Below, piece by piece: positions 37,776 through 51,350 of a stretch of DNA of 64,000 bases (the stretch's first letter is position 1; each line of letters begins with the position of its first letter). A program made the position numbers and the translations under genes. A model generated the notes under the pieces. It was not told where the DNA came from, did not search any database, and was given only the letters and a program-made list of their open reading frames with translations. The DNA is from an uncultured Candidatus Saccharibacteria bacterium. GTDB taxonomy: Bacteria > Patescibacteriota > Minisyncoccia > Phycocordibacterales > JACOZG01. The stretch covers positions 79,042-143,041 of the forward strand of contig CAZYLF010000001.1 in the NCBI GenBank assembly GCA_964648765.1. Reading direction: 5' to 3'.

Positions 37776-37806
37776 AAGGGATTCGAGAATCCCCGAGGTA
37801 GCGAAT

Positions 37807-37877
37807 GCGGATATCGTTTAGTGGTAGGACACGTCCTTGCCAAGGATGAGGTGGGAGTTCGATTCTCCCTATCCGCA
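37807..37877 (+). tRNA. tRNA-Gly (anticodon GCC)
   Basis: Acceptor GCGGATA/TATCCGC, anticodon loop TTGCCAA, T-loop TTCGATT. Confidence 0.8.
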
Positions 37878-38003
37878 CACAATATGTACCTTGTCTCATT
37901 ATTTCCATCAGACAGTCCGTTATAAACCCTTAAAACTGTGGATAACTCTGGGGACAATGGGGATAAAAGACAGTAAAAGTCGTCTTATATGGCTTAAAAT
38001 CGT

Positions 38004-38387
38004 ATGTCCAAGACAGAAAAGCAGCTGACAGGTGATGTTGGGGAAAACCTAGCAGCTATGTTTCTTATGAAACATAATTTCACCATTATTGGCCGTAATT
38101 ACCGTAAAAAGTGGGGTGAGATTGATGTCATTGCTAAGAAGGGGAATGAGATTAGATTTGTGGAAGTGAAGACTGTGATCCGAGATTTTATTAAAGAAGG
38201 GGATTATGAGGCGTCAGATAATGTGCATCCGTGGAAGCTTAAGAGACTTTCACGAGCGATTCAGACATATTTGTTAGAAAATAAAATTAATGAAGATGAA
38301 ATTGATTGGCAGCTTGATGTAATCTCTGTATATTTAAACGGGCGAGGGGAGACTTTAAAAATTGATTGGTTAGAGGATGTGTTTTAA
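38004..38387 (+). CDS. YraN/UPF0102 family endonuclease-like protein
   Basis: GENLAAMFLMKHNFTIIGRNYRKKWGEIDVIAKKGNEIRFVEVKT matches the UPF0102 pattern. Confidence 0.7.
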   Translation: MSKTEKQLTGDVGENLAAMFLMKHNFTIIGRNYRKKWGEIDVIAKKGNEIRFVEVKTVIRDFIKEGDYEASDNVHPWKLKRLSRAIQTYLLENKINEDEIDWQLDVISVYLNGRGETLKIDWLEDVF

Positions 38388-38468
38388 GCTTGACTTTTGT
38401 GTTGTTTCTGCTTTAATGTGAAAAGCGAATTTTGTTGTTTGAAATGGTAAATTTGAAAGGAGAAAATC

Positions 38469-39425
38469 GTGGCCGAAAGTCGGAAAGAACGCCTCAAAGA
38501 TCTAGTTTTGTTGCCATTCTGGGTGCTCTTATTCTTGCTTATTCTAATTATTTATCCATTTTGGCTTTTGTTTACCAGAGTGGTGAACTGGGTGGGATTA
38601 AGCAATTTACGCACAATGAAAGGTGATGTGCAGACTCCGGTGGTTTATTTTCTGAATCAAAACACCAAACGGATGGTGATTCTGGTAGGGGTGGTGCACC
38701 TCGGCGAGAAGTCGTATTACGCGCAAATCCGGGAACTTCTGGCCTCACTCGACGGCTTCACTGTTCTTTATGAATGGATTAAAGCCTTAAGTGATGAGGA
38801 AAAGTCGAAATTAACTGAGAAGTCCGAAAAAATCGTAAAGGAGTTTGAGAGCTATGGTAAATCCTCACGGATGATTTGTGAGATTCTGGGCCTACAGCCG
38901 CAGAAAGAGGGTTTGCCAATTGAAGCAAAGTGGATCAACACTGACGTAAGAGCCTTTGAATTGATCAATTACTTTGTGAATCACAATCTCAATTTCATGA
39001 AAGATATCGGCAAAATTGAGAAACTTCTAGGTGCGGAATCTGACCAAGTGCTTGATAAGTGGCTACTGAATGGGACCTTCAAGCGAATCATTGTTGTTAT
39101 GGTGTTTGCGGGGTTTTATAGTAAACTCACCAGAAAGCGCCGTTTGAAGCATGATTTTTTGATTAACCAGCGGAATGTTGTTGCAGTTGAAGGTATCCGC
39201 GAGCATTTGGCCAAAGGCAATGTGGTGGCAATATGGGGAGCAGGGCATTTGCCGGGGATTGCCAAAATGCTTAAGCAAGATGGCTTCAGTGTGGTGGGCA
39301 AAGAATGGTACACGGCGTATAAAGCAAAAGATTGCTCGTTTTGGGATGTTTTTGCCGATCGTAGTGTGGTGGCGGTGGAGCGTTTGGCGGCAATTTCTGA
39401 TCAGATAACGAGAATAAAAAAGTAA
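38469..39425 (+). CDS. TraB/GumN family protein
   Basis: GTG start with GGAG SD. N-terminal TM. Motifs LVGVVHLGEKS and GAGHLPGIAKMLKQDGFSV are typical of TraB/GumN. Confidence 0.6.
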   Translation: MAESRKERLKDLVLLPFWVLLFLLILIIYPFWLLFTRVVNWVGLSNLRTMKGDVQTPVVYFLNQNTKRMVILVGVVHLGEKSYYAQIRELLASLDGFTVLYEWIKALSDEEKSKLTEKSEKIVKEFESYGKSSRMICEILGLQPQKEGLPIEAKWINTDVRAFELINYFVNHNLNFMKDIGKIEKLLGAESDQVLDKWLLNGTFKRIIVVMVFAGFYSKLTRKRRLKHDFLINQRNVVAVEGIREHLAKGNVVAIWGAGHLPGIAKMLKQDGFSVVGKEWYTAYKAKDCSFWDVFADRSVVAVERLAAISDQITRIKK

Positions 39426-39449
39426 CACAGTTTGCTTAGGCAAACACCG

Positions 39450-39483
39450 ACCCCCTCCGTAAAAAAGAGGGGGTTTGATTTTA
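39450..39483 (+). terminator. putative intrinsic terminator
   Basis: accccctc-cgtaaaaaa-gagggggt followed by ttgatttt. Confidence 0.45.
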
Positions 39484-39484
39484 A

Positions 39485-39556
39485 TCGGAGCGCCGGGATT
39501 TGAACCCGGAGTCACACGAACCCGAATCGTGCATGTTACCGTTACACTACGCTCCG
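39485..39556 (-). tRNA. tRNA-Pro (anticodon CGG)
   Basis: Minus-strand fold: acceptor CGGAGCG/CGCTCCG, anticodon stem CACGA/TCGTG with loop TTCGGGT, T-loop TTCAAAT. Confidence 0.8.
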
Positions 39557-39677
39557 TAACTCTTGGGTAATTTAACATAATTAAAATTAATTTGTAGTAA
39601 TCCACCTCATTTGCTAGGGTTAAAATTGGAAAATAACAAGCTCGAAGGCTTGTTTGTGGAAATTAAGGAGGACTGTA

Positions 39678-40292
39678 ATGGCGAAGAAAAAGGTTAGATC
39701 GGGAATTCAGAGGCGGGTCAAAGCATCTGCAAGCAGAAATTTGGTTGATGAAATCAACTCTAAGCTTGAAAGTGTAAGACGTCAGCTTGTGATGGAGATT
39801 ATCCCCGACACCTCTGGGAACGAACACACACTCTTAAATTTGGGGGTAATAGGGGATGGGTGTGTTCAGAATATAAATAAAGGGCACTTCTTTTTTCCAT
39901 TTTTAGGAAATAGATATGTAGCCGCGATGTGCTTTTACGGGAAGGCATCTGCGTATGACGTAAGGGCATATAATTTTAACAACCCCTTTTCCCCTAACCC
40001 TCTTAACGATCTTTTGTCTGGCAATTGGTCTATGCGAGTCGGCGCTCAGCACTTTCTTTCTGAAAATTTTGGATCAAATGGGCGTATGTTTTTGGGAAAC
40101 AAGGCTGTTTTGGATTGGTTCTTTGAGAGAGCGCTTTTACACCCCATGGCTAAGCCATATGAGGTTCTTAAGTTTGCAACTAATGTCTTTAGTGCAGAAA
40201 AGATAGTCGTTTCAGGTTATCAACACTACCTGAGAGAAGTAATCCAACAAAGGCTCGATGGTGTGGGCCAAATAGTAGAGCTTTTGGGTTAG
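39678..40292 (+). CDS. hypothetical protein (MAKK family A, paralog 1)
   Basis: AAGGAGG plus ATG. C-terminal GNKAVLDWFFERALLHPMAKPYEVLKFA resembles the 40416 gene. Own terminator. Confidence 0.5.
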   Translation: MAKKKVRSGIQRRVKASASRNLVDEINSKLESVRRQLVMEIIPDTSGNEHTLLNLGVIGDGCVQNINKGHFFFPFLGNRYVAAMCFYGKASAYDVRAYNFNNPFSPNPLNDLLSGNWSMRVGAQHFLSENFGSNGRMFLGNKAVLDWFFERALLHPMAKPYEVLKFATNVFSAEKIVVSGYQHYLREVIQQRLDGVGQIVELLG

Positions 40293-40314
40293 GTTGATTT
40301 CTAGAAGCTGATCT

Positions 40315-40345
40315 GGCCCCGTCGCTTGTGACGGGGCCTTTTTCT
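40315..40345 (+). terminator. intrinsic terminator
   Basis: ggccccgtcgcttgtgacggggcc followed by tttttc. Confidence 0.65.
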
Positions 40346-40415
40346 TGCTAGTTTGAGGTTTGAAAACTCGAGCCAAGGTGGCTTGTTAGGATCTTTGATT
40401 TGAAGGGAGAAAACG

Positions 40416-41180
40416 ATGGCAAAGAAGGTTATGAAGGTGGAGCAGAAGAAAAGCGGCGGTTTGGTTCAGCGTATTAACGAGGTGCTGAAGGATCACAATG
40501 GCCAATTGGCGATGGTGATCAAGCATGAAACTGCTTCGCCCCAGAAAAGTGGCGGGGTAAGAAGAAATTGTGAAGAACCGACCATGGATCTCGATATCGA
40601 GCCGAGGATCAAAACGACGCTTCGTGTTGGGAGGGTATGCAAGGGGTTGCCAGTAGAAAAGCTTAGGGAAGATGGAATTTTTTCCATGCCGGCTTTTGGC
40701 GGTATCGTGGTATGTAAACGTGCTAGCGAAAAAGATCAATTTTCCGTTGAGTTTTTAAAGGGGGAAGGATATTTTTTTATCCCCGCGCAATCGGTAATAC
40801 CGCTTAAGAAGAAGGCCCCTGAGGATGTGTCTGGCGAAGAAATCTTGGATATTCTCAAAAGCCGCGAGCATGGAATGGGTTTGATTGGAGATAAGGCAGT
40901 TATTGAATGGCTCCTTGGTGATTATCTGGATAATCCAGAGTCAAACGCACCTGAGGTACTTGCGCAGGCCATCAAGCACCTTAAGATTGATAAAGAAATT
41001 GGTCTGCCGAATTTTTTTGTGGGACGACACGAAGCGGCAGAAGCAAGGTTTCAACAGGTGGAGGAGGCAATTTACCAGTTGGTGCCGCAAAAGCTTCGCG
41101 AGCTAAGAAGTTCGATCGAGCATGAAAAGAAGCAGTTAGAAACCTTAATCGAATTGTCTACTGAAAGGAGGGGAGGATGA
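40416..41180 (+). CDS. hypothetical protein (MAKK family A, paralog 2)
   Basis: GGAG SD plus ATG. GDKAVIEWLLGDYLDNPESNAPEVLAQA resembles the 39678 gene. Confidence 0.5.
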   Translation: MAKKVMKVEQKKSGGLVQRINEVLKDHNGQLAMVIKHETASPQKSGGVRRNCEEPTMDLDIEPRIKTTLRVGRVCKGLPVEKLREDGIFSMPAFGGIVVCKRASEKDQFSVEFLKGEGYFFIPAQSVIPLKKKAPEDVSGEEILDILKSREHGMGLIGDKAVIEWLLGDYLDNPESNAPEVLAQAIKHLKIDKEIGLPNFFVGRHEAAEARFQQVEEAIYQLVPQKLRELRSSIEHEKKQLETLIELSTERRGG

Positions 41181-41842
41181 ATCTGAAACCGTGGAAAAAG
41201 AAGGAACCGGAGAATCTTTCTCCGGAAGAGGCGAGGTTTAAGAGGGGATTTGATCGGTTGTTTGGCTTTGGTCTGCCAGAGTATGTGCAGAAATCTCTCG
41301 AGCGCCAAAAATCTTTGGTGATCGCCCATGCTTTGAAGTTGCAGACCACCGACTTTTATTCAGTAGTACCGCTTAGTGACGTAAATTTGCCAACGCAGCT
41401 TAGTTGGCTGGCTGGTAAAAAGGCACCGAGTTTACCTCATTATCGTCGTTGGCCAAAATGTCGATTCGGCAGTTTGCCAGACTTGCCGTGGTTTATTTTT
41501 GGTGTGAAGGTCACTAATTGTTTGGATCACAGCGTGGAGGACGTGGCGCGACACTTAGTAGGCGAAGGGGAGGAGATCCTGACTTTGCCAGAGGTGATTG
41601 CCTTTTTGCTTGAGGTGAAAAAGACGCAAGCCGAAGCCCCAAGTGAGCCTCACCCCATAAAATTGGCGCTCTCCACATTTCATCTTGTTGGTAATATGGA
41701 TGGCAACAATTGGCCACTCATCACTTGTGATAGTGCGGGAGTGGCGCTGGTGTCGAGACAAGATTCTGCGCTTATCTCAACAACCAGACCCAACAATTAT
41801 CTCCTTTCAACTCAAGTCAGAAAGTGTTTTGTTTTGGAATAG
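41177..41842 (+). CDS. hypothetical protein
   Basis: ATGA overlap with the upstream gene. 221 aa. Followed by a terminator. Confidence 0.5.
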   Translation: MNLKPWKKKEPENLSPEEARFKRGFDRLFGFGLPEYVQKSLERQKSLVIAHALKLQTTDFYSVVPLSDVNLPTQLSWLAGKKAPSLPHYRRWPKCRFGSLPDLPWFIFGVKVTNCLDHSVEDVARHLVGEGEEILTLPEVIAFLLEVKKTQAEAPSEPHPIKLALSTFHLVGNMDGNNWPLITCDSAGVALVSRQDSALISTTRPNNYLLSTQVRKCFVLE

Positions 41843-41849
41843 TTCACTC

Positions 41850-41884
41850 GCCCCGCGCCGTAAATGGTGCGGGGCTTTTTTTTA
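41850..41884 (+). terminator. intrinsic terminator
   Basis: gccccgcgccgtaaatggtgcggggc followed by ttttttttt. Confidence 0.7.
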
Positions 41885-41906
41885 TGCTAGATTAACTGGG
41901 CAATAA

Positions 41907-41977
41907 CGGAGCGTAGTATAGCGGTAGTATGCATGCTTTGGGAGCATGTGGCCCGGGTTCGATTCCCGGCGCTCCGA
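41907..41977 (+). tRNA. tRNA-Pro (anticodon TGG)
   Basis: Acceptor CGGAGCG/CGCTCCG, anticodon stem CATGC/GCATG with loop TTTGGGA, T-loop TTCGATT. Confidence 0.8.
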
Positions 41978-42074
41978 AGATTAGGTTTTCAAATTTGCGT
42001 GAGTTTATTTTTTGGCGTACCATATATCCCAACGTGTTCTTTGGAGGTTGGAGTCAGTTTTTTATGGAGGATTT

Positions 42075-42374
42075 ATGAAAACGGCCCCATGTTTGGCTAG
42101 TGATCTCTCGGTGTATCCAGAGTCGTCGTTGCGCGAGATTGGCCACTGGTTGGACCAATCTATTGGAGCGATGGAAAGTTTAAGTAAATTAAGGAGCACC
42201 ATCCCGTCTTTTTTTGGTTCTGATCGGCGCCTGACGAGCGCTTCCAACGCTTTTGTTTCTAGTGTTGGCGCGTTACTCCTAACTCTTCACGAAATGAAGG
42301 ACCTGCGCTCCAAAATTACTGATGAAATCAGGAAAAAGCGCGAAGTGCGTGAGCCTTCTCTCATTTCTGCATGA
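42075..42374 (+). CDS. small hypothetical protein
   Basis: GGAGG plus ATG at 42075 inside the track ORF. 99 aa. Terminator downstream. Confidence 0.4.
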   Translation: MKTAPCLASDLSVYPESSLREIGHWLDQSIGAMESLSKLRSTIPSFFGSDRRLTSASNAFVSSVGALLLTLHEMKDLRSKITDEIRKKREVREPSLISA

Positions 42375-42398
42375 AGAAAAAGCTGGAAAAAACAACTA

Positions 42399-42439
42399 GC
42401 GCCAGTCCCGCACCGTTGCGGGACTGGCGCACTTTTTTG
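42399..42439 (+). terminator. intrinsic terminator
   Basis: gcgccagtcccgcaccgttgcgggactggcgc followed by acttttttg. Confidence 0.7.
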
Positions 42440-42510
42440 TCTGTGCTAAAATCAAATCAGTCTGATCTTTGTGAGACAGGCTATTTTATACCAAATAAGG
42501 AGGATGATCG

Positions 42511-42876
42511 ATGGGTCGATCCCGGCGTCGGCGTGGATATGGTGGCAATAACAATGGTCAATCTAATGGGGGAAAGGCAAATAAACCCCAAGCAGCGCCT
42601 ATCCAAACAAGCAACGAACAATCAAAGCAGCCCCCGTCAATTTATTGTGGTATTTGCGGAAAAGCCCACGATAACGGCTTTCCAATTTGGGAGTTGCCAT
42701 GTGGTCGTCGATTTAACATCAGGGTAGAAATTCCAGCCTGCGACTTTTGCTTAGACTCAAAGCATTTCAAAGACTTTCTTGGTCTTCGTGATGCAAATGG
42801 TCCTAAGACTACGTCGGATTACCTCACTCTCCTTGCTCGTTACATAGAATTGTATCAAAAAAGACGTACATCCTAA
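42511..42876 (+). CDS. small Cys-rich (zinc-ribbon-like) protein with Arg/Gly-rich N-terminus
   Basis: AAGGAGG plus ATG. CGICGK ... CGRRF ... CDFC. Preferred over the overlapping track ORF 42371..42727. Confidence 0.45.
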   Translation: MGRSRRRRGYGGNNNGQSNGGKANKPQAAPIQTSNEQSKQPPSIYCGICGKAHDNGFPIWELPCGRRFNIRVEIPACDFCLDSKHFKDFLGLRDANGPKTTSDYLTLLARYIELYQKRRTS

Positions 42877-42898
42877 GTTTCAAAAAAAGTAATTAAAC

Positions 42899-42940
42899 TT
42901 GCCCTGACCATCATACGGTTGGGGCAACTTTTTATTTTAA
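42899..42940 (+). terminator. putative intrinsic terminator (imperfect stem)
   Basis: ttgccc ... gggcaa followed by ctttttatttt. Confidence 0.4.
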
Positions 42941-42944
42941 ATTT

Positions 42945-43015
42945 TCGGGCTGCCGAGAATTGAACTCGGTCTACATGCACCCCATGCATGCGTACTGCCG
43001 GTATACTACAGCCCG
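42945..43015 (-). tRNA. tRNA-Pro (anticodon GGG)
   Basis: Minus-strand fold: acceptor CGGGCTG/CAGCCCG, anticodon stem CATGC/GCATG with loop ATGGGGT, T-loop TTCAATT. Confidence 0.8.
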
Positions 43016-43127
43016 TAGCAACAACCATGTATCATACTTCTGATAACGAGGTTTGCAACTTTTTGTGCTTTAGAGTAGTTTTCATTATTAGTGAGGACAA
43101 ATAAGCTTTTTGAAAGGAGGCAAGCGG

Positions 43128-43640
43128 ATGAGCGGAGCACAGGTTGAAAGCCGTTTCAAAGTATTTGAAGAAATTGAAAACGCTTTGGCTGGCAAAATCG
43201 GTGAGCGAGTGCTGGTGGTGAAGAGGGGAATCCATCATCAAAAACGCGCAAGCGATAACACGGTGGTGCACTCGTGGCATGTTGAGGAATGGTTTATAGG
43301 CAGATTGAATGCGAACATTTTACTTACCGAGCCGGACTGTGGAATTATCTTTGTGCCGGTGGAGAAGCACGTGCGGGCAAAATTTCCGTACGGCAATCAG
43401 AAGGTAGTGTGTGATGTTACCACCTCACCTATTCGTCTTAATGTGTTTGATGACGATGGAGCGATTGAAACGGTGATTCCGCCGCGAGAAGCTTTTGATC
43501 TCAGTGTGCGTAATGCGCCGCCACGCTCTGTGCAAGTGGTGATCTCAGACGATCCGATCAGAAGTTTTGTGGCAAACAAGGGTAAAATGGCTGCACACAT
43601 GTATTTTTGTCTCAATGCACAACTTCATCGTAGTGGGTAA
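43128..43640 (+). CDS. hypothetical protein
   Basis: AAAGGAGG plus ATG at 43128. 170 aa. Own terminator. Confidence 0.5.
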   Translation: MSGAQVESRFKVFEEIENALAGKIGERVLVVKRGIHHQKRASDNTVVHSWHVEEWFIGRLNANILLTEPDCGIIFVPVEKHVRAKFPYGNQKVVCDVTTSPIRLNVFDDDGAIETVIPPREAFDLSVRNAPPRSVQVVISDDPIRSFVANKGKMAAHMYFCLNAQLHRSG

Positions 43641-43654
43641 GATATCAGTTTTTC

Positions 43655-43683
43655 TGCCGGGCGCTTCGCGCCCGGCTTTTTTC
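43655..43683 (+). terminator. intrinsic terminator
   Basis: gccgggcgcttcgcgcccggc followed by ttttttc. Confidence 0.7.
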
Positions 43684-43700
43684 TTGCTACAATTATATGA

Positions 43701-44123
43701 ATGGTATTTTTTCTCCAAATCTTGATTGCGTTGGTGGCGCTTTGTGGCTTATCAATCGCTCTTTATATTTCTCATAAAAAAGTTCATGGTGGCAAAATGG
43801 TTTGCATGCTTAATTCAGATTGCGAAGTGGTGGTCACAAGTAATTATTCTAAGTTTTTAGGAATCCCCGTTGAGCGTTTAGGTATTGCTTATTACTCTAT
43901 TGTGGCGGCAAGTTATTTGGTTTTTGCTTTCGCACCTCAACTCTCACATAACTTTTATTCAGTAATTTTGCTTTGGGCCACGGTGCTCGCTTTTTTATTT
44001 TCGATTTATCTTACCTACATTCAGATGGCTAAGATTAAACAGTGGTGCACTTGGTGTCTCACCTCAGCAATCATTTGCACCGTAATCTTCCTTGCAGTTC
44101 TTAAATTAATCAGTATATTTTAG
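43701..44123 (+). CDS. vitamin K epoxide reductase (VKOR) family membrane protein
   Basis: Four hydrophobic helices. Loop cysteines (CMLNSDC). CTWC redox motif in the last helix region. VKOR-like arrangement. Confidence 0.65.
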   Translation: MVFFLQILIALVALCGLSIALYISHKKVHGGKMVCMLNSDCEVVVTSNYSKFLGIPVERLGIAYYSIVAASYLVFAFAPQLSHNFYSVILLWATVLAFLFSIYLTYIQMAKIKQWCTWCLTSAIICTVIFLAVLKLISIF

Positions 44124-44161
44124 CTACAGCGGGCTTGCCCGCCGTAGCGTTAGCAAAAGCG

Positions 44162-44235
44162 GGATTAGTTTATCGGTAAAATAACAGTTTTCCAAACTGT
44201 GGTGACCGGTTCGACTCCGGTATCCCGCACCAAAA
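44162..44235 (+). tRNA. tRNA-Gly (anticodon TCC), CCA encoded
   Basis: Acceptor GCGGGAT/ATCCCGC, anticodon stem ACAGT/ACTGT with loop TTTCCAA, T-loop TTCGACT, 3' ACCA. Confidence 0.8.
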
Positions 44236-44311
44236 ATAAGGATTGCTCAAAATGTAACTTGTGGTAGTTTGTTGTCTGGATTAGAACCTTGTTAATTTAA
44301 GGAGAAAGGCA

Positions 44312-45241
44312 ATGATAACGCTGTCGAATCGTTACACTTTTGATTATCTGATCTCAAGTGGCGCTTGGGGCGATGTGGGTAGGGGTTGGTGGTATGACCA
44401 ACCGTGGTTTGCATTAGGACTTATGAAGCGCAGGCCGTTTGCTGTTGTCACCAAATCAGTTAGCCGTTTCCCCATGAAAGGGAATCGTTCTTTCAAAGAC
44501 TGGTTTGGTGTTGGTTGTGTGCGTTTTATTCCTGATGGTGTGGTTAATGCCGTTGGTCTCACCAATGATGGCTTTCATGTTTGGTTTGATAAGGTGAAGC
44601 GATATGTGAGACCTAATGACTGGCGACTAATTCCATCTTTGTACGGCTCTACTGAGGATTTGGTTTATATGATTGATCGACTCAATCAGTCCGGACTTCC
44701 GTTTGTGGCTCTCCAAATCAATATGTCTTGCCCCAACACTGGCCCAGGTCTTTTGGGTACCGAGGATGCCTTAATCAGGCTCCGTGTACTTAAAGGAACA
44801 AGTTCCTACCCAATTATCGCCAAACTTTCAGTCGCACAAGATTGTGTAGCGATTGTGAAGGGGGGTAAACCGGAAGCGGTGGAACTTAACAGTGTGCCGT
44901 GGAAAATAATGTTCCCTAATGACCGAAGTCCGCTGGAACATATCCCCAACAGTAATGGTGGGGGCGTATCGGGCAAGGTGGCACAAAAATTTACCTGGCC
45001 ACTCATCGAGAGATTGGCGAAGGAGTGTCCGGAAGTGCCGGTGATCGGCGGGAACATCTGGGAGTATTTAGACATCGCTCGCGTGCGATTGATCGGCGCT
45101 AAAGCTGTGAGTTTTGGTTCGGTGCACATTCCTAACCCACGTAAGATTTCAACGTGGTTAAACCCCACAAAACCCACGCGGTGGGTTTTGCAAGATATCC
45201 AAGACATGAATGAATGGGAGGAAGATCTAGATGAAGAGTAG
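44312..45241 (+). CDS. pyrD: dihydroorotate dehydrogenase-like (class 1) flavoprotein
   Basis: LQINMSCPNTGP active-site Cys motif. C-terminal GGVSGK ... VPVIGGNIWEYLDIARVRLIGAKAVSFGS. GGAG SD plus ATG. Confidence 0.7.
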   Translation: MITLSNRYTFDYLISSGAWGDVGRGWWYDQPWFALGLMKRRPFAVVTKSVSRFPMKGNRSFKDWFGVGCVRFIPDGVVNAVGLTNDGFHVWFDKVKRYVRPNDWRLIPSLYGSTEDLVYMIDRLNQSGLPFVALQINMSCPNTGPGLLGTEDALIRLRVLKGTSSYPIIAKLSVAQDCVAIVKGGKPEAVELNSVPWKIMFPNDRSPLEHIPNSNGGGVSGKVAQKFTWPLIERLAKECPEVPVIGGNIWEYLDIARVRLIGAKAVSFGSVHIPNPRKISTWLNPTKPTRWVLQDIQDMNEWEEDLDEE

Positions 45242-46304
45242 AGGTAGTGAAGTGTCGCAGGTGAAGGTGCAAGCCATTGCCGACACGCATTTGCATTTGC
45301 GTGAAGGTGCTAAGTTGGTAAAGGATTTGATCGCTGCATCCGCTCAAGGTGGCGCTGACTTTGCTATTTTTATGCCCAACACACAAGCTGGGTTGAAAAA
45401 TGGAGTGGAAGCAGAGAGGTATTATAAGGTTGCTCGGAATGCTGATCGAGAAGGTAAACTTGATCTTCGAGCAACTTTTGTGATTACACCAGACACAACC
45501 TTTGAAACATTAAAGAATTGTGTTCAGTGTGGAGTACGTGATGCCAAAGTTTATCCGAGAGGAAGAACCACCAACTCCAGTTATGGGGTGAGTGATTATG
45601 GCGCACTTCTTCCGATCATCAAACGTTGTGGAGAAATGGGGATACGCGTGCACTTCCATCCGGAACATCCGATTGGCCTCGTGCCTAATCGCGATGCGGA
45701 GTATCTTTTTATCCCGATTATGGACATGTTTCTTCGGGAGACTAAAGCTACTCTCATTTGGGAGCATGGCACTGATGGTCGGTGTGTACCATTTTGGGAA
45801 GAGTGGGGTGAGAAAGAAAAAGGTCGTTTTGCCGTGACTCTCACGGCGCACCATTTGCTCACCACTGAAGATGTTGTGTTTGGTGATGTGCGTGGTGTGT
45901 GCAAGCCGCCAATAAAAACAGAAGCAGACCGTTTCCGTCTCATCGATTTGGTGGCAGCTGGTTACTCTTGGGTAATGGCAGGGTCTGATAGTGCGCCGCA
46001 CCCAGTGCATAAGAAAAATGTGCAGCAAGGTCGATGTGCGTGTGGGGCCTTCACTGCTCCCTTTCTCCATTCACTTTATGCTCAGGCGCTTGGTGATATT
46101 CTCTTTGATACTGAAACTGGTATCAATCTCTACAACGCGTTTGTAAGTGAGAACGCGCGCAAGTTCTATGATTGGCCGGCGAGTTCTCGGGAGATCGTCC
46201 TGATAAACGAGCCGTTTACGATCCCCAATTCTTACTTGCTGGGTGGTGAAGAGTACGAACTCTTCATGGCTGGCGAGATGCTTAGGTGGAGTATTGCTAA
46301 GTAG
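45231..46304 (+). CDS. pyrC: dihydroorotase, type II (E. coli-like)
   Basis: ADTHLHLREG, DAKVYPRGRTTNSSYGV, GSDSAPHPVHKK, FMAGEMLRWS. All align with E. coli PyrC blocks. Confidence 0.85.
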   Translation: MKSRGSEVSQVKVQAIADTHLHLREGAKLVKDLIAASAQGGADFAIFMPNTQAGLKNGVEAERYYKVARNADREGKLDLRATFVITPDTTFETLKNCVQCGVRDAKVYPRGRTTNSSYGVSDYGALLPIIKRCGEMGIRVHFHPEHPIGLVPNRDAEYLFIPIMDMFLRETKATLIWEHGTDGRCVPFWEEWGEKEKGRFAVTLTAHHLLTTEDVVFGDVRGVCKPPIKTEADRFRLIDLVAAGYSWVMAGSDSAPHPVHKKNVQQGRCACGAFTAPFLHSLYAQALGDILFDTETGINLYNAFVSENARKFYDWPASSREIVLINEPFTIPNSYLLGGEEYELFMAGEMLRWSIAK

Positions 46305-46318
46305 TAAAATTTATTAAG

Positions 46319-46357
46319 CGTGGTAGCTTGTTAACGCAAGCTACCACGTTTTCTTTA
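46319..46357 (+). terminator. intrinsic terminator after pyrC
   Basis: cgtggtagcttgttaacgcaagctaccacg followed by ttttcttt. Confidence 0.7.
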
Positions 46358-46453
46358 TTAATTTGTTTTGCTTGCAAGTTTGGCGTTTACGTATTAAATT
46401 TAATGGCAGAGGTTCTGTGATTAGTACAGTTTTTTTTGGTAAAGGAGCAACGC

Positions 46454-46600
46454 ATGATTTGCCTTCAGAGTGTCTTCGATCTTCCGTGGCTTAATGAGAT
46501 CAATTTTGATCTCGAGATTGACTGGCAGTATGTCTTCAAGGTCATCTTGATTTTGAAAGTCGTCTTCTTGCTCGCGCTCTTTGTCGTCACATTTTTGTGA
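46454..46600 (+). CDS. unannotated small ORF (48 aa) with hydrophobic C-terminus
   Basis: AAAGGAG 7 nt upstream of the ATG. Encodes MICLQSVFDLPWLNEINFDLEIDWQYVFKVILILKVVFLLALFVVTFL. Followed by its own terminator. Below the ORF-track cutoff. Confidence 0.35.
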   Translation: MICLQSVFDLPWLNEINFDLEIDWQYVFKVILILKVVFLLALFVVTFL

Positions 46601-46616
46601 CGAGCGCCGTTCCTAA

Positions 46617-46650
46617 ACCGTGGAGTTTTCACACTCCACGGTTTTTGTTT
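46617..46650 (+). terminator. intrinsic terminator
   Basis: accgtggagttttcacactccacggt followed by ttttgttt. Confidence 0.65.
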
Positions 46651-46753
46651 ACGCTATTTACTTTTTTAATATAATGTGCTAGTAATTTAAGTAGAAATTG
46701 TCGCCTCATTTGAGGCTTTGAAAATCAAAACACTTAATGAAAGGCGGTGGCGT

Positions 46754-47503
46754 ATGATATCAATAGACACGATTCAAAATCTGAGTTGGGGGCGTGGGGA
46801 TTTCAGGGCGAAGTTGGAGTTATTTAGGCGGGCCAGAAAAGAGTTCCGAGACAAAGAATTTGAAATCAAGATGTTTCCAAAGGGCAATACAGAACATCGG
46901 CTCTCGTGGGAATATTCAGCATTGTCGAGTACTTACTATAGCATCTTCACTACGGCCATTGCTCAGCTTTTTTCAATTAAGTCTGATGGGTGGTTGGCGC
47001 CACTTCGCCTTATCCCTTGGCTCCTCACCTGGGGTTGGTTGGGCTTTTGGTGTTGGTGGCGGATGTTACCACTTTCCAATAAAGCCTTAAGGTTAGCTGG
47101 AGGGTACGGTTGCATGGACGCTGATATGTGTGATGTTCGTCAAAGCATTCTTCGGGCTCGTTTGAAATGGGAGAAGGCGCTCAATTGTTGCGGTTATGGT
47201 TTACGGGATGAACAAATTTCCCCTCATACTAAAGCGCTACTTTTGGTGGCGCGGGCAGAAGGGTATTGGAGGTTTAATAAGACCCGAGATGTCGAACATG
47301 ACATTGAGTCGGCACTGAGGCTTGCAGTTGAACTTGAAGAGAGTGAACCCAATCAGATGTCGCGTGTGTATCGTCGGTGTGCTGTATTAGTTGAAAAACT
47401 TAACTTTGATAAGTATGACTGGCAAGCACTTTTGGCTAAGGCTAAAGAGCTAGCCGAGAGAGCGGGCGCTGGTGATCAGACTCTCAAGTGCGCAGTAGTT
47501 TGA
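46754..47503 (+). CDS. membrane hypothetical protein (Trp/Cys-rich)
   Basis: ATG at 46754 inside the track ORF. TM segments (PWLLTWGWLGFWCWW). Own terminator. Confidence 0.45.
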   Translation: MISIDTIQNLSWGRGDFRAKLELFRRARKEFRDKEFEIKMFPKGNTEHRLSWEYSALSSTYYSIFTTAIAQLFSIKSDGWLAPLRLIPWLLTWGWLGFWCWWRMLPLSNKALRLAGGYGCMDADMCDVRQSILRARLKWEKALNCCGYGLRDEQISPHTKALLLVARAEGYWRFNKTRDVEHDIESALRLAVELEESEPNQMSRVYRRCAVLVEKLNFDKYDWQALLAKAKELAERAGAGDQTLKCAVV

Positions 47504-47523
47504 TTGATAATGGATTCTTTACT

Positions 47524-47558
47524 CCGCGGAGGCTTTTACGCTTCCGCGGTTTTTTTGT
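47524..47558 (+). terminator. intrinsic terminator
   Basis: ccgcggaggcttttacgcttccgcgg followed by tttttttg. Confidence 0.7.
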
Positions 47559-47661
47559 TTCACTAACTTGTTTTATTGGGCTATTTAAGATAGTTTGAAA
47601 GTTGGTTAGGTATTTTGAAAAAAGAACATTTTCTCCCGAAGGGAGAGAGGGGTGGTAAAAG

Positions 47662-48435
47662 ATGGAAAAAGGAAGTAAGCAGTTATTGGATGAATTAGAT
47701 AGTTTAGAAAATCTGCACACAAACCTGGCAATTCTGAAGAGCCAGGTAGAAATTGGTGCCAGTAAGTGCCGGGAAAAATCTTCAGAAATTCATAGACTAA
47801 TCTCTTCTGGTCACACCACAGGTGATCCGTTTCGGGATTTTGTGATTTATTGGGCTGAACGTTATAAATGGGATCCGATCAGGTCAAATTTATCAAGTCT
47901 CCAGCGATTGATCGCACACAAGAAGGGGCAATTGGTGTTGGCCATTTTCCGTCGTGAGATTGAGAAGCCTCGCGCTTGTCTTGATTTGGGTTTAGATGGC
48001 TGTTTACCAGCCAGTTATGATCAAGCCGTCGACATGTGCTTGGGGCGGTTAACAGACAGTTGTTTAATTATTGATGTAAAACAGTATTTGATTCAACTGC
48101 CAACGGGGAGTTATGTGAGATGGTCGGAAAAGGGTATTTTGGAGGCTGCAAAACCCGGGCCAATTGGGAGTTCGCCATCTGGTAAACACTTTTTGGGTTT
48201 GTTTGAGCCGGTGGGAAGATGGGAGGGAAGAGGGGAGGATCTACCCGCCGTTTGTGATCTTGAGCATGCGCCGACAGACACCAGAGACCACATTACTTCC
48301 AGTTGCTTCTTTCATTATCTTGGTGAAAATAAGCGACGAGCGGAAGTGTGGGTTGGTGATAAAGAGGTTGAAGCTTTTTTCCCAGGTTGTATGAAGGAGA
48401 GAATTTTTTCCAAAATGCTTCACCTGCTTGGTTAA
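47662..48435 (+). CDS. hypothetical protein, family B paralog 1
   Basis: Shares LQRLIAHKKGQLVLAIFRRE, FGRLT and VGDxxxxAFFPG blocks with the 48597 gene. Conserved 5' leader. Confidence 0.55.
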   Translation: MEKGSKQLLDELDSLENLHTNLAILKSQVEIGASKCREKSSEIHRLISSGHTTGDPFRDFVIYWAERYKWDPIRSNLSSLQRLIAHKKGQLVLAIFRREIEKPRACLDLGLDGCLPASYDQAVDMCLGRLTDSCLIIDVKQYLIQLPTGSYVRWSEKGILEAAKPGPIGSSPSGKHFLGLFEPVGRWEGRGEDLPAVCDLEHAPTDTRDHITSSCFFHYLGENKRRAEVWVGDKEVEAFFPGCMKERIFSKMLHLLG

Positions 48436-48457
48436 GTAGTTCGAGTAAGTAAATCAG

Positions 48458-48490
48458 CTCCTCACTCATAAATGAGTGGGGAGTTTTTTG
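48458..48490 (+). terminator. intrinsic terminator
   Basis: ctcctcactcataaatgagtggggag followed by ttttttg. Confidence 0.6.
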
Positions 48491-48596
48491 TTTCATATTG
48501 TTTGCAATTCTTCCAATTTGCGGGTAGTTTAATGACTGGATTTGGTATTTTGAAAAATAAACGTTATTTCCCGTAAGGGAGAAGGGTTGGTGAAAA

Positions 48597-49379
48597 ATGT
48601 CGCCAGTAAATGACGTGGGAGTGTCAAAAAAGTTGGGTAATTTGGATCAAGAGTATGTTGAGCTTGCAAATGAGAAGGAGGTGGTGAAGCGGAGAGTTAT
48701 CCGCATCAACACTCTGGTTGATGAAATCCGTGTCGATATTTTAGCAGGTCGCTCCACAGGCAATGCGGTCGACGATTTCGTCGTATGTAAGTTTGATTAC
48801 CCAGACTGGGGAAAGAAGAAATCAAACCTCGACGCTTTGCAGGATTTGATTAAGGGGAAGAAGGGTGAACTTGTGCTCGTGATTCACCGATATGTGGATC
48901 GACCGTTCGGTGACTGTGGTGGACCAGTTCACTTGGCGTGCATTGCGCCACCTGAGTCGGAGAAAGGGTGGCCAACATACACTCTCTATTTCGGTAGGCT
49001 GACTGGAGAAAATTTAATTGTAGGCTTGGAGCCTGAAACTATAGGTTTGCCTACTTCTTATCATGTTATTTATCCCAAAAGTAACAAAATGGAGAAAGTG
49101 GTTGGTCCAATAGCGAAGTATGGTTATCCAAACAATTTCGACTTGGCAAACTTTGAGCCACAGGATGCAAGCAAAGAAAATTCCCGTGTGTGGCCTCCAC
49201 ATGAAGCGATCGTGGAGAAGGACCATCTTATTGCTAGCATGCTCGACTCTTTACTTTGTGAGGGTGATGAAAAAATTCAAGTAATTGTCGGTGATGACAA
49301 CATTTCCGCTTTCTTTCCTGGAGCGACTCGTAAAATTTTTACCGAGATGACTCGGGTGATGGCTGAAGGAGTTGTTTGA
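48597..49379 (+). CDS. hypothetical protein, family B paralog 2
   Basis: LQDLIKGKKGELVLVIHRYVD, FGRLTGENLIVGLEP, VIVGDDNISAFFPGATRKIFTEM. Confidence 0.55.
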   Translation: MSPVNDVGVSKKLGNLDQEYVELANEKEVVKRRVIRINTLVDEIRVDILAGRSTGNAVDDFVVCKFDYPDWGKKKSNLDALQDLIKGKKGELVLVIHRYVDRPFGDCGGPVHLACIAPPESEKGWPTYTLYFGRLTGENLIVGLEPETIGLPTSYHVIYPKSNKMEKVVGPIAKYGYPNNFDLANFEPQDASKENSRVWPPHEAIVEKDHLIASMLDSLLCEGDEKIQVIVGDDNISAFFPGATRKIFTEMTRVMAEGVV

Positions 49380-49396
49380 GGTCTGAGTTTCACACT

Positions 49397-49431
49397 CGCC
49401 CTGTACTATTATGGTACAGGGCGGTTTTTTT
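49397..49431 (+). terminator. intrinsic terminator
   Basis: cgccctgtactattatggtacagggcg followed by gtttttttg. Confidence 0.7.
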
Positions 49432-49531
49432 GTTTCATTGTTGATTTTTATTAAATTTAAGGTAGTTTAGGAAAAGTGTTGAACGTTGTTAAAATGAACT
49501 TTTAGCCAAGAGCTAGAGAGGTTGGTGAAAA

Positions 49532-50146
49532 ATGTCGGAAGCACCCCACAGTGACACATATTCACATCGAGATCATTTGCTTGCTGCTGTTCAGTTTCAG
49601 GAGGATTGCTTGAGGGAGATAGAAACCTCTCTGTCTGCGCAGAAGAAAAATGTGGTTTCAGCAGTCAATGAATTTCGAGCGTTCCTGAGAGAAGATAAGG
49701 AGCACAAAGACCCAATTGCGGATCTAATTATCCTTCGCTTTCCGCGTGAGGAATGGAATTGGCGGATACAATTATTTCACGAGTTGGAGAAACAGCTTGC
49801 TGGCCTTGTTGGTAAAACAGTATGTGTGAAGGAGAGGGAACGTGTTGCCACAGGTGATAGCGAGTTAATCTACCAAACTAATTTTTGCGTTGGCGTGTTA
49901 AAACAAGATAAACTCGTTTTTACTTGGGGAGAAGATAATTGCGTCTACTTACCTACTGAAAAGCATGTTTACTTCACCAAGAGGGGGACCAGCATTTACC
50001 ATGATCCACCCCCCTCGCTTATACAGGGCAATGTCAAACTAAGTTTGGGTCAAATTGAAATTCGTGATGTGGGTAACGACAATGAATATCTGAGAGTTTT
50101 GTACCAGGAGGAAATGACAAGAGCGCTTGAGCTGCTTGATCAATAA
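49532..50146 (+). CDS. hypothetical protein, probable divergent family B paralog 3
   Basis: Same leader (ttggtgaaaaATG) and weak similarity (LEKQLAGLVGKTVCV). 204 aa. Confidence 0.45.
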   Translation: MSEAPHSDTYSHRDHLLAAVQFQEDCLREIETSLSAQKKNVVSAVNEFRAFLREDKEHKDPIADLIILRFPREEWNWRIQLFHELEKQLAGLVGKTVCVKERERVATGDSELIYQTNFCVGVLKQDKLVFTWGEDNCVYLPTEKHVYFTKRGTSIYHDPPPSLIQGNVKLSLGQIEIRDVGNDNEYLRVLYQEEMTRALELLDQ

Positions 50147-50160
50147 GCTTCACAAACCCG

Positions 50161-50189
50161 TCCCGCGCCTTACAGCGCGGGATTTTTTT
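50161..50189 (+). terminator. intrinsic terminator
   Basis: tcccgcgccttacagcgcggga followed by ttttttt. Confidence 0.7.
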
Positions 50190-50222
50190 GCATCACAAGT
50201 CAAAATCCGCTAGCATGGTGGA

Positions 50223-51350
50223 ATGAGTATGAGCAAAATTGAGACAAGCAAATTACGCACCTGGATCACGATTGATAAAAGTGCGATTAAAAATAATTAC
50301 CAAGTTTTCCGTAAATTAATTGGACCAAAAGTTAAATTAATGAGTGTGGTGAAGTCGAACGCTTATGGTCACGGCTTGGTAAATTTTGCTAAAGAAGTTG
50401 CAAGTCTGGGTGCAGACTATGTTGCCGTGGACTCAATTGTGGAAGCCGAGCGCTTGCGCAAGGAGGGGATCACCACACCAATTTTTGTGCTTGGTTACAC
50501 CCGACCAATTAATTACCCTCGCGCGGTGGAACTTAATATTGAACTGGCAATTTCTAGTCTCGACTCAATTAAGCAATTAATCCCGGGACTTAAAATTCAT
50601 TTGAAGGTAGACACGGGTATGCATCGACAAGGTTTTCTTTTGTCTGAATTTTCTGATGCGCTTGGTGAGTTAAAAAAGTTTGAGAGTGATGTGCAAGTGG
50701 TAGGCGTGTTTAGTCACTTTGCCTCAGCAAGTGACGTTGAGTTTAAAGAAGATTCACAAAAACAAATTGTCGAATATAAAAATTTCTTAAAAATTTTGGA
50801 AGAAAAAAGTTTTGATACTAAAAAAATAATCAAACACATGAGCGCATCTGGCGCGACGTTTAATTATCCTGAGGCACACTTTGATATGGTGCGCGTGGGT
50901 TTGAGTATGTATGGCTTGTGGCCATCGCGTGAGCTTGAGGAACGTTTTGCTGGCGAGCATCCACTCAAGCGCGTGATGACTTGGCAAACAATAATTGGCG
51001 AAGTAAAAATTCTAACTGAAGACGGACACATTGGTTACGATTTTACTGAAGAGGTGAAAAAGGGGATGAGGATCGCGGTTTGCCCGATTGGTTATTGGCA
51101 TGGTTATCCACGCCACCTTTCTTCAATCGGCCACGTGTTGGTGCGTGGAGAGCGAGCTAAAATTTTAGGTCGTGTGTCGATGGATATGATTGCGATTGAT
51201 GTTTCAAACATACCTGAAGTGAAGGCCGAAGATGTGGTGACAGTACTTGGTGAGGGGATGACCGCGCGCCACTTTGCGGATCAGATAGGCACTTCGCAAT
51301 ACGAATTTATCACAACGGTTAATCCGCTGATTAAAAAGTTTTATATTTAA
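50223..51350 (+). CDS. alr: alanine racemase
   Basis: PLP lysine motif VVKSNAYGHGL plus overall Alr architecture. Confidence 0.9.
   Translation: MSMSKIETSKLRTWITIDKSAIKNNYQVFRKLIGPKVKLMSVVKSNAYGHGLVNFAKEVASLGADYVAVDSIVEAERLRKEGITTPIFVLGYTRPINYPRAVELNIELAISSLDSIKQLIPGLKIHLKVDTGMHRQGFLLSEFSDALGELKKFESDVQVVGVFSHFASASDVEFKEDSQKQIVEYKNFLKILEEKSFDTKKIIKHMSASGATFNYPEAHFDMVRVGLSMYGLWPSRELEERFAGEHPLKRVMTWQTIIGEVKILTEDGHIGYDFTEEVKKGMRIAVCPIGYWHGYPRHLSSIGHVLVRGERAKILGRVSMDMIAIDVSNIPEVKAEDVVTVLGEGMTARHFADQIGTSQYEFITTVNPLIKKFYI

What the first reader, a model, noticed from the sequence alone, without database searches (positions are those of the whole stretch)
47580..50200. Three tandem monocistronic paralogs (family B) with conserved 5' leaders including a CTCCCGAAGGGAG hairpin
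The 47662, 48597 and (more divergently) 49532 genes are paralogs (LQ.LI..KKG.LVL.I.R, FGRLT, VGD....AFFPG blocks). Each has its own promoter-like upstream region (GGTAGTTTA ... TTGGTATTTTGAAAAA) and its own terminator.

Two leaders contain a small hairpin directly before the SD (ctcccgaagggag at 47624-47636, cccgtaaggg at 48572-48581). All three use the identical SD-start context TTGGTGAAAAATG.

Tandem, independently expressed and diversifying copies of an unknown intracellular protein (no signal peptide) are typical of immunity-protein or effector-associated families. That reading is speculative.
Basis: partly seen in the sequence, partly recalled or inferred. Interest (0 to 1): 0.5.

Follow-up and report, generated by a model that had tools for sequence, protein, structure and literature searches.

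The report
Tandem paralogs of uncharacterised CPR/DPANN protein
Three neighbouring genes encode old, very diverged copies of a protein family of unknown function that turned up only in ultra-small bacteria (CPR) and ultra-small archaea (DPANN), and each copy keeps its own promoter, leader and terminator, with the control DNA better conserved than the proteins.

Summary
ORFs 47662-48435, 48597-49379 and 49532-50146 are paralogs. c1/c2 share 29% identity (E=3e-24). An HMM built only from foreign sequences hits c1, c2, c3 and a fourth copy, 43110-43640. Each gene ends in a strong intrinsic terminator.

The ~112-nt upstream cassettes are 62-74% identical, against 49±4% for control upstream regions, while synonymous sites are saturated. 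A model built from the three leaders finds the DNA upstream of the family gene in two related genomes and nothing else in 566 kb.

The family has 172 cluster representatives at E≤1e-3 and no Pfam, NCBIfam, PADLOC, PHROG or PDB sequence match. All taxonomically informative loci are CPR bacteria or DPANN archaea. About 37 other non-redundant loci carry one copy, among housekeeping genes.

A close relative (alr 90% identical) has one copy where this genome has a 6-kb variable slot.

No toxin or defence gene lies nearby, so the immunity reading is not supported. Function remains unknown; a non-enzymatic binding protein, possibly RNA-binding, is my best guess. Moderately interesting.

The parts
47662..48435 (+). 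c1, family member, 257 aa (motif GHTTGDPFRDFVI retained)
   Evidence: ORF list; 29% identity to c2, E=3e-24; foreign-only HMM E=3e-41
48597..49379 (+). c2, family member, 260 aa (motif degenerate: GRSTGNAVDDFVV)
   Evidence: E=8e-41. AlphaFold2 model pLDDT 81.9, pTM 0.76. Groups with P0004 of relative L054 in the NJ tree
49532..50146 (+). c3, family member, 204 aa, older paralog lineage (GETTGD motif lost: DKEHKDPIADLII)
   Evidence: Foreign-only HMM E=4e-22. Best BLAST hits are P0043 (2e-12) and P0011 (1e-10) from other genomes, not c1/c2
43110..43640 (+). Fourth family member (176 aa), lacks the N-terminal helical region
   Evidence: Foreign-only HMM E=2.5e-11; BLASTP E=5e-5 to c3; 77% identical homolog in L054
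39654..41180 (+). 'Family A' genes (39654-40292 and 40416-41180), remote relatives sharing the beta-barrel core
   Evidence: hhalign A10 vs A4: probability 91%, E=1e-6 over 73 columns
47568..47596 (+). c1 promoter-like element TTGTTT-N17-TAGTTT
   Evidence: Conserved columns in alignments A7 and A11; pattern enrichment. TSS not measured
48502..48530 (+). c2 promoter-like element TTGCAA-N17-TAGTTT
49441..49468 (+). c3 promoter-like element TTGATT-N16-TAGTTT
47609..47622 (+). Conserved leader box GGTATTTTGAAAAA of c1. Identical in c2 at 48544-48557; degenerate in c3 at 49482-49495
   Evidence: the only exact matches in the window are these two. Also conserved upstream of P0043 and P0004
47629..47649 (+). 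c1 leader hairpin (9 bp, loop GAA), pyrimidine arm pairing with the purine tract just 5' of the SD
   Evidence: RNAfold -11.5 kcal/mol, z=-3.0
48567..48582 (+). c2 leader hairpin core (UUUCCC/GGGAGA, loop GUAA)
   Evidence: RNAfold, z=-2.4 to -3.7
49503..49515 (+). c3 weaker hairpin (UAGC/GCUA) at the homologous position
   Evidence: RNAalifold consensus of 7 pairs, 3 with compensatory change; z=-1.7
48585..48599 (+). SD-start context GGTTGGTGAAAAATG of c2. Identical in c3 at 49520-49534; c1 at 47650-47664 has 3 mismatches
48456..48485 (+). Intrinsic terminator of c1 (13 bp stem plus T-run)
49396..49424 (+). Intrinsic terminator of c2
50160..50183 (+). Intrinsic terminator of c3
47524..47549 (+). 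Terminator of the upstream gene 46718-47503; isolates c1 from read-through
44230..50201 (+). Variable chromosomal slot between tRNA-Gly(tcc) and alr. Holds a pyrD-like gene, a pyrC-like gene, 46718-47503, c1, c2 and c3. Relative L054 has 775 bp with a single family gene here
   Evidence: blastn window vs L054: flanks 81-86% identical, homology stops at 44229 and resumes at 50202

Best explanation
The three genes are anciently diverged paralogs of one uncharacterised protein family with no signal-like N-terminus. The window holds at least four members of the family. It holds six if the remote 'family A' is counted. In my searches, every taxonomically informative locus carrying the family was a CPR bacterium or a DPANN archaeon.

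They sit in a variable chromosomal slot between tRNA-Gly/VKOR and alr. Relatives keep one copy of one or another lineage there; this genome keeps three in tandem.

Each copy is its own transcription unit:
- a promoter read as TTGnnn-N16/17-TAGTTT (inferred);
- a ~58-nt leader with the box GGUAUUUUGAAAA, a pyrimidine/purine hairpin abutting the SD, and a purine-rich SD;
- the ORF;
- a strong intrinsic terminator.

The control cassette is under purifying selection. It is far better conserved than the coding DNA and is recognisable in other genomes. The copies are therefore probably expressed under common control (inferred).

The protein has a long N-terminal helix. A loop follows that carries the family hallmark GE[ST]TGDxIxDF, then two more helices. 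Next come a small beta-barrel with a variable insertion and a C-terminal hhhGDxxVxxWF alpha/beta element. The nearly invariant residues are Gly and Asp only, with no obvious catalytic set.

I therefore infer a non-enzymatic binding or adaptor protein. In that reading the helices mediate assembly, the barrel binds a ligand, and the paralogs differ in specificity. RNA is the most likely ligand, but weakly so.

The anatomy, paralogy, distribution and cassette conservation are shown. The promoter assignment, co-regulation and binding function are inferred.
For: - Paralogy.
- Family size and absence from curated libraries: 172 representatives at E<=1e-3; no Pfam, NCBIfam, PADLOC, PHROG or PDB sequence hits.
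- Distribution: Saccharibacteria, Giovannonibacteria, Paceibacterota, Patescibacteria, and Pace-, Woese- and Nanoarchaeota MAGs. The archaeal context is confirmed by an adjacent PolD DP2 gene.
- Copy number: single copy elsewhere.
- Syntenic slot: L054 (alr 90%, HU 99%, VKOR 96% identical) has one copy. L051 has a c3-type copy, and L057 has a c3-type copy directly upstream of alr.
- Age: 4-fold sites match in 7-38% of cases between family genes, against 58-63% in flanking orthologs. The NJ tree gives (c1,(c2,P0004)) and (c3,P0043,P0011).
- Cassette: 62-74% identity vs 49±4% for controls; CDS nucleotide identity only 37-46%. The leave-out nhmmer model finds only the family upstream regions in L054 (4e-8) and L051 (3e-5) within 566 kb.
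- Promoter pattern: 8 hits vs 1.9 expected, 6 of them upstream of island genes.
- Terminators. Hairpins.
Against: - There is no experimental or transcript evidence for the promoter, TSS or co-regulation, and the sigma-70 consensus scan missed these sites.
- The hairpin is robust only in c1 and c2. It is weak in c3, L051 and L057 and absent in L054.
- The taxonomic restriction rests on a motif-seeded scan that returned 17 genome loci and on unlabelled metagenome proteins. Only 64 kb of this genome was seen.
- Leader similarity within the array could partly reflect gene conversion.
Confidence: 0.6

Rival explanations
1. RNA-decay or RNA-binding accessory. The family would be an Sm-like RNA-binding protein that works with RNase Y and mRNA turnover, and perhaps autoregulates by binding its own conserved leader.
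For: - RNase Y lies within a few kb in 5 non-redundant loci. It is immediately downstream on the same strand in L005 and L042, one gene away in L011, and 2 kb away in the window. Their RNase Y proteins are only 40-62% identical.
- The conserved leader with a hairpin could serve as an operator.
Against: - The canonical model did not reproduce the Sm hits.
- DPANN archaea carry the family; no RNase Y homolog clustered among the neighbours in the archaeal loci, though only some were scanned against Pfam.
- The RNase Y linkage may be inherited synteny (recA-x-FAM-rny) rather than a functional link.
- Most loci show other neighbours.
Confidence: 0.15
2. Immunity, antitoxin or effector-associated array. 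The diversifying tandem copies would each neutralise a cognate polymorphic toxin.
For: - The locus is a variable slot whose content differs between close relatives.
- A PemK toxin gene occupies the same slot in L051.
- Ancient allele-like lineages are differentially retained.
- The copies have independent promoters.
Against: - No toxin or effector domain within about 10 kb and no PADLOC hit.
- The family is single-copy next to housekeeping genes in about 37 other non-redundant loci.
- It has a conserved hallmark motif and a 200-350 aa multi-domain architecture, which from my own knowledge is unlike typical small immunity proteins.
- It is present in archaea next to PolD and absent from viral contigs.
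Confidence: 0.08
3. Recent local triplication followed by very fast (positive) in-situ divergence, rather than old paralogs retained.
For: - Equal ATG-to-ATG spacing of 935 and 935 nt.
- Highly similar leaders.
- Flanking genes are 90-99% identical to L054, while the family gene is only 37% identical.
Against: - Synonymous 4-fold sites are at random-like identity between copies and between c2 and P0004. Flanks are at 58-63%, and NG86 dS is >=2 or undefined.
- c3 is closer to P0043 and P0011 from other genomes than to c1 or c2.
- The leader cassette is also conserved across genomes, so its similarity needs no recent origin.
Confidence: 0.08
4. The leader similarity is a by-product of gene conversion among tandem units and carries no regulatory function. 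The hairpins are incidental pairing between a U/C tract and the purine-rich SD region.
For: - c2 and c3 share an exact 15-mer even though their proteins are about 20% identical.
- Hairpin strength varies, and L054 has none.
Against: The same cassette is found upstream of single-copy family genes in L051 and L054, where no local donor exists within the fetched flanks. The block structure and spacing are conserved.
Confidence: 0.09

Closest known systems
Sm/LSm/Hfq-type small beta-barrel proteins
Arrays of polymorphic-toxin immunity genes
   Same: Tandem, diverged, separately expressed paralogs in a slot that varies between close relatives.
   Different: No adjacent toxin. No match to any Pfam model, including immunity domains. 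The usual state is single-copy in housekeeping neighbourhoods. The family occurs across two domains of life.
5' stabiliser or operator stem-loops in bacterial mRNA leaders (e.g. ompA, aprE, STAB-SD type; from my own knowledge)
   Same: A short stable hairpin in a ~58-nt leader, immediately 5' of a strong purine-rich SD, in monocistronic mRNAs.
   Different: No Rfam family matches. The position relative to the 5' end is unknown because the TSS is inferred. The hairpin is not conserved in all orthologous leaders.
Lineage-specific expansions of hypothetical protein families in CPR genomes
   Same: An uncharacterised family with no curated domain, small genome, fast-evolving proteins.
   Different: Here the family is also in DPANN archaea, its cis-regulatory cassette is conserved beyond the coding sequence, and the paralogs are old rather than recent.

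Membership tests
Sm/LSm fold family | N-terminal helix plus five-stranded bent beta-sheet superposable on Sm proteins | tested here: inconclusive
Sm/LSm fold family | Sm1/Sm2 sequence motifs, i.e. a match to the Pfam LSM models | tested here: not met
   No Pfam hit for the window copies or for any of 61 members.
Sm/LSm fold family | Hexameric or heptameric ring assembly and RNA binding | not testable with these tools
   No multimer prediction or biochemistry available.
Polymorphic toxin immunity / antitoxin | Adjacent cognate toxin or effector gene | tested here: not met
   The Pfam scans of ORFs between 38 and 52 kb found only UPF0102, TraB/GumN, VKOR, DHO_dh and Alr; the pyrC-like ORF matched dihydroorotase models only in NCBIfam, below cut-off. 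The sampled neighbours elsewhere are housekeeping genes. PemK occurs only in the L051 slot, two genes away.
Polymorphic toxin immunity / antitoxin | Match to a known immunity or antitoxin domain | tested here: not met
   No hit to any model in Pfam, NCBIfam or PADLOC, so none to an immunity or antitoxin domain.
Anti-phage defence systems (PADLOC) | Match to a defence protein model | tested here: not met
   No hits for c1-c3, 43110, family A or the canonical member P0051.
Known cis-regulatory RNA (Rfam) | Covariance-model match in the leaders | tested here: not met
   The gathering-threshold scan found only tRNAs. The E-value scan of 46300-50300 gave only sub-threshold chance hits on terminators.
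Intrinsic (Rho-independent) terminator | GC-rich stem-loop followed by a T-run directly after the stop codon | tested here: met
   48456-48485, 49396-49424 and 50160-50183 have 9-13 bp stems with T7-type tails. The stems differ in sequence while the hairpin and the tail TTTTTTTGTTTCA are kept.
Sigma-70-type promoter | -35 TTGnnn and -10 TAnnnT hexamers spaced 16-18 nt, upstream of the gene | tested here: inconclusive
   TTGnnn-N16/17-TAGTTT is present in c1, c2, c3, L051 and L054, and at three other island genes (8 hits vs 1.9 expected). The hexamers are too weak for the consensus scan, and no TSS data exist.

The most novel reading that the evidence does not exclude
The family would be a signature component of ultra-small episymbiotic cells, shared by CPR bacteria and DPANN archaea and absent elsewhere. 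It would be an Sm-like, coiled-coil RNA- or partner-binding adaptor kept as ancient, exchangeable cassettes under one conserved promoter/leader module. Copy number and cassette choice in the tRNA-Gly-alr slot would tune a host- or RNA-related function, possibly through RNase Y-linked mRNA turnover with autoregulation at the conserved leader.
Probability: 0.12. Interest if true: 0.7.

Novelty: new variant of a known kind. Interest (0 to 1): 0.42.

Why it matters
CPR bacteria and DPANN archaea are full of proteins of unknown function, and very little is known about how they control gene expression.

This locus offers three concrete things:
- A defined, uncurated protein family with a sharp hallmark motif (GE[ST]TGDxIxDF) and a confident predicted structure (pLDDT 93). 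It appears confined to these two groups of ultra-small cells, which makes it a candidate marker of their shared biology or of gene exchange between them.
- A rare case in which a CPR promoter/5'-UTR module can be delineated purely by comparison, because it is conserved while coding and synonymous sites are scrambled. It could be tested directly in metatranscriptomes or in the genetically tractable Saccharibacteria.
- A small variable slot next to a tRNA gene in which old paralog lineages are differentially retained. This is a useful model for how reduced genomes keep diversity.

None of this yet shows a new mechanism.

Tried and rejected
- Curated protein libraries. Pfam, NCBIfam, PADLOC and PHROGs gave nothing for the copies or for 61 members.
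- Homolog searches. The word-indexed search with c2 found only itself. The search with the canonical alignment found unnamed proteins, one 'hypothetical' label and one evidently spurious 'seryl-tRNA synthetase' label. Cluster look-up gave no names.
- PDB by sequence. Only coiled-coil noise.
- Other collections. The viral contig scan found no relatives. Rfam gave no family in the leaders.
- dN/dS between copies. dS is saturated or undefined, so omega is meaningless. I used 4-fold-site identity instead.
- Island integration. No att-like repeat of the tRNA-Gly 3' end in the slot and no GC anomaly, so I rejected a recently acquired foreign island.
- c3 C-terminus. By eye it may keep the VGxDN motif, but BLASTP on the short segments found nothing, so this stays unverified.
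- Literature. Three searches (a fourth attempt was rejected for a malformed term) found nothing on this family or on CPR promoter motifs.
- Alignment-seeded locus search. The 61-sequence alignment was too diverse to seed the scan, so I repeated it with a 14-sequence sub-alignment.
Full report
**1. What is there**

On the + strand lie three ORFs: c1 47662-48435 (257 aa), c2 48597-49379 (260 aa) and c3 49532-50146 (204 aa).

- c1 and c2 align end to end at 29% identity, E=3e-24.
- c3 is only weakly similar pairwise, E=5e-4 to 2e-3, though collinear.
- An HMM built exclusively from sequences of other genomes scores c1 3e-41, c2 8e-41 and c3 4e-22.
- The same HMM also scores a fourth ORF, 43110-43640 (176 aa), at 2.5e-11. 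That ORF lacks the N-terminal helices.
It shares the barrel core: hhalign probability 91%, E=1e-6.

Each of c1-c3 is followed by a strong intrinsic terminator, at 48456-48485, 49396-49424 and 50160-50183. The gene upstream of c1 has its own terminator at 47524-47549.

**2. The upstream cassettes**

The ~112 nt between each terminator and the next ATG are 62-74% identical pairwise. For 700 control pairs of upstream regions in the same window the figure is 49±4%, with a maximum of 61%.

The coding DNA is only 37-46% identical, and third positions only 27-36%. The conserved words are not general features of this genome.

Reading the alignment, the cassette consists of:
- the terminator tail TTTTTTTGTTTCA;
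- TTGnnn-N16/17-TAGTTT, at 47568-47596, 48502-48530 and 49441-49468;
- the box GGTATTTTGAAAAA;
- a pyrimidine-arm/purine-arm hairpin;
- a purine-rich SD with GGTTGGTGAAAAATG.

The TTG-N19/20-TAGTTT pattern occurs 8 times in the window, against 1.9 expected, and always on the + strand. Six of the eight lie in front of island genes: c1, c2, c3, 40416, 43110 and the pyrD-like gene at 44312. I read it as a weak sigma-70-type promoter. This is inference only. The consensus scan did not call it, and there are no transcript data.

The hairpins are solid in c1 (47629-47649, 9 bp, z=-3.0) and c2 (core 48567-48582, z=-2.4 to -3.7). The c3 hairpin (49503-49515) is weaker. RNAalifold gives a 7-pair consensus with 3 compensatory pairs.

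The 'identical SD context in all three' holds only for c2 and c3. No Rfam family matches.

**3. The family**

Curated libraries are silent: Pfam, NCBIfam, PADLOC and PHROGs. The word-indexed search found only the query itself.

An exhaustive profile search of 1.84 billion cluster representatives found 172 proteins at E<=1e-3. Their alignment (A4, A8) shows:
- a long N-terminal helix;
- the hallmark loop GE[ST]TGDxIxDF[VI]I;
- LExxhxGKKGExVLV;
- LGxLxxxxLxxxxxxCxLPTxx[YH]V;
- hhhGDxxVxxWF.

The nearly invariant residues are Gly and Asp only.

The window copies show graded loss of the hallmark loop:
- c1 GHTTGD;
- c2 GRSTGN;
- c3 DKEHKD;
- in 43110 the whole region is missing.

A motif-seeded scan of one genome per species returned 17 loci:
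- Saccharibacteria, Giovannonibacteria, Paceibacterota and Patescibacteria;
- one 'Gammaproteobacteria' MAG, whose contig carries RNase Y and is therefore probably mislabelled (my inference);
- four DPANN archaeal MAGs.

One archaeal locus has the DP2 subunit of PolD next door. The archaeal context is therefore genuine.

No relatives were found on viral contigs. Across about 37 non-redundant other loci the gene is single-copy within ±8 kb. The sampled recurring neighbours are housekeeping genes: EF-G, RecA, RNase Y, DnaK, a PBP, iPGM, ClpP and an M50 protease.

**4. Structure**

AlphaFold2 gave pLDDT 81.9 and pTM 0.76 for c2, and pLDDT 93.4 and pTM 0.85 for the canonical member P0051.

The fold is a helical N-terminal part (H1 about 43 residues, the hallmark loop, then two helices), a small beta-barrel with a variable insertion, and a short alpha/beta C-terminal element. 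Canonical members add C-terminal long helices.

- Foldseek finds nothing.

The whole architecture therefore has no solved relative. 'Sm-like' is a lead, not a membership.

**5. The locus in relatives**

The window's RNase Y and ClpP are 62% and 71% identical to those of a Saccharibacteria MAG. The source is probably a saccharibacterium or a close relative (inference).

- **L054 (close relative).** alr is 90% identical, HU 99% and VKOR 96%; flanking DNA is 81-86% identical. It has a single family gene (P0004, 178 aa, 37% identical to c2) between tRNA-Gly and alr. Homology to the window stops at 44229 and resumes at 50202. So 775 bp there correspond to 5,973 bp here, which hold the pyrD-like and pyrC-like genes, 46718-47503, c1, c2 and c3.
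- **L051 (more distant; rny 91% identical).** The slot holds VKOR, PemK, a homolog of 46718, P0043 (c3-type), PaaX_M, two small ORFs and alr.
- **L057.** It has a c3-type gene directly upstream of alr.

**6. Age of the copies**

Four-fold sites inside identical codons match in only 7-38% of cases between family genes, including c2 vs P0004. In the flanking alr and VKOR orthologs they match in 58-63%. NG86 dS is >=2 or undefined. The numbers of 4-fold sites per comparison are small (13-26).

A crude NJ tree gives (c1,(c2,P0004)) and (c3,P0043,P0011), with the archaeal members as one clade.

The copies are thus old lineages, differentially retained or exchanged. They are not a recent triplication evolving fast.

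**7. Conservation of the cassette across genomes**

An nhmmer model made from the three window leaders alone finds exactly the DNA upstream of P0004 (E=4e-8) and of P0043 (E=3e-5). It finds nothing else in 566 kb of held sequence.

With neutral sites scrambled, this shows purifying selection on the promoter/leader module. It argues for common regulation of all family lineages in this clade.

**8. Interpretation**

The immunity/effector idea is not supported. There is no toxin, no match to any domain model including immunity domains, and no defence model. The usual context is housekeeping and single-copy, and the family spans two domains of life.

The only features pointing that way are the variability of the slot and the PemK gene in one relative.

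My best reading is a non-enzymatic binding or adaptor protein family typical of CPR and DPANN cells, present here as three co-regulated monocistronic paralogs.

An RNA-related role is the most specific hypothesis I can offer, at roughly 15%. Two observations support it: the Sm-like barrel and the recurrent proximity to RNase Y in five loci. Three observations count against it: the family is found in DPANN archaea (no RNase Y homolog clustered among the archaeal-locus neighbours), the fold score is weak, and the linkage may be plain synteny.

**9. Verdict**

This is a real and well-delimited feature. It is an uncharacterised but not obviously exotic gene family expansion with an unusually well conserved control module. 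It is moderately interesting, and its function is unresolved.

Noticed in passing
window 39654-41180: The two 'family A' genes (212 and 254 aa) are remote relatives of family B: hhalign probability 91%, E=1e-6 over the barrel core. 40416 carries the same TTGnnn-N17-TAGTTT element (40326-40354) and overlaps the next gene, 41177-41842, by 4 nt, which suggests an operon.
   Followed up: partly
window 47662 / 48597 / 49532: ATG-to-ATG spacing is exactly 935 nt twice, although c1 and c2 are 29% identical with many indels. This may be coincidence or a constraint on unit length.
   Followed up: no
window 44243-44270, upstream of the pyrD-like gene at 44312: The pyrD-like/pyrC-like pair is absent from close relative L054. 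It is preceded by a copy of the family promoter module up to about +20 (TAGTTTGTTGTCTGGATTAG, compared with c1 TAGTTTGAAAGTTGGTTAGG). The inserted operon looks as if it captured or duplicated a family promoter.
   Followed up: partly
window 46718-47503 and leader 46645-46717: A 261-aa protein with two hydrophobic, Trp-rich segments and no domain hit sits directly upstream of the family gene both here and in L051 (48% identical). Its own leader has a conserved hairpin: GCCTCATTTGAGGC at 46702-46715 here, GCCTCGTGTGAGGC in L051. It may be a partner of the family.
   Followed up: partly
window 37696-44232: Six tRNA genes (Arg, Gly, three Pro isoacceptors, Gly) are interspersed with small unannotated monocistronic genes, each with a strong terminator. 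The variable slot begins exactly at the 3' end of tRNA-Gly(tcc), but no att-like repeat or integrase was found.
   Followed up: partly
L005 6156-8853; L042 5133-7240; L011 6292-11380: In three divergent CPR contigs the family gene lies between recA or clpP and rny. RNase Y is immediately downstream on the same strand in L005 and L042. The order recA-x-FAM-(x)-rny seems conserved.
   Followed up: partly
L051 4526-4858: A PemK/MazF-type toxin gene sits in the same VKOR-alr slot of a relative. No obvious upstream antitoxin ORF was called.
   Followed up: no
L016 3721-8201: In a Pacearchaeota MAG the family gene is convergent with the PolD large subunit (DP2) gene. The archaeal family genes have AT-rich TATA-like upstream boxes and essentially no leader, so the bacterial leader module is not shared.
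   Followed up: partly
window 44312-46304: The pyrD-like ORF hits DHO_dh only weakly (1e-11). The pyrC-like ORF scores far below the dihydroorotase equivalog cut-off (191 vs 293 bits). Both are divergent versions of pyrimidine-synthesis enzymes in what looks like a reduced CPR genome.
   Followed up: no
protein P0162: One source labels a family member 'seryl-tRNA synthetase'. This is almost certainly an artefact of the long coiled-coil helices.
   Followed up: no
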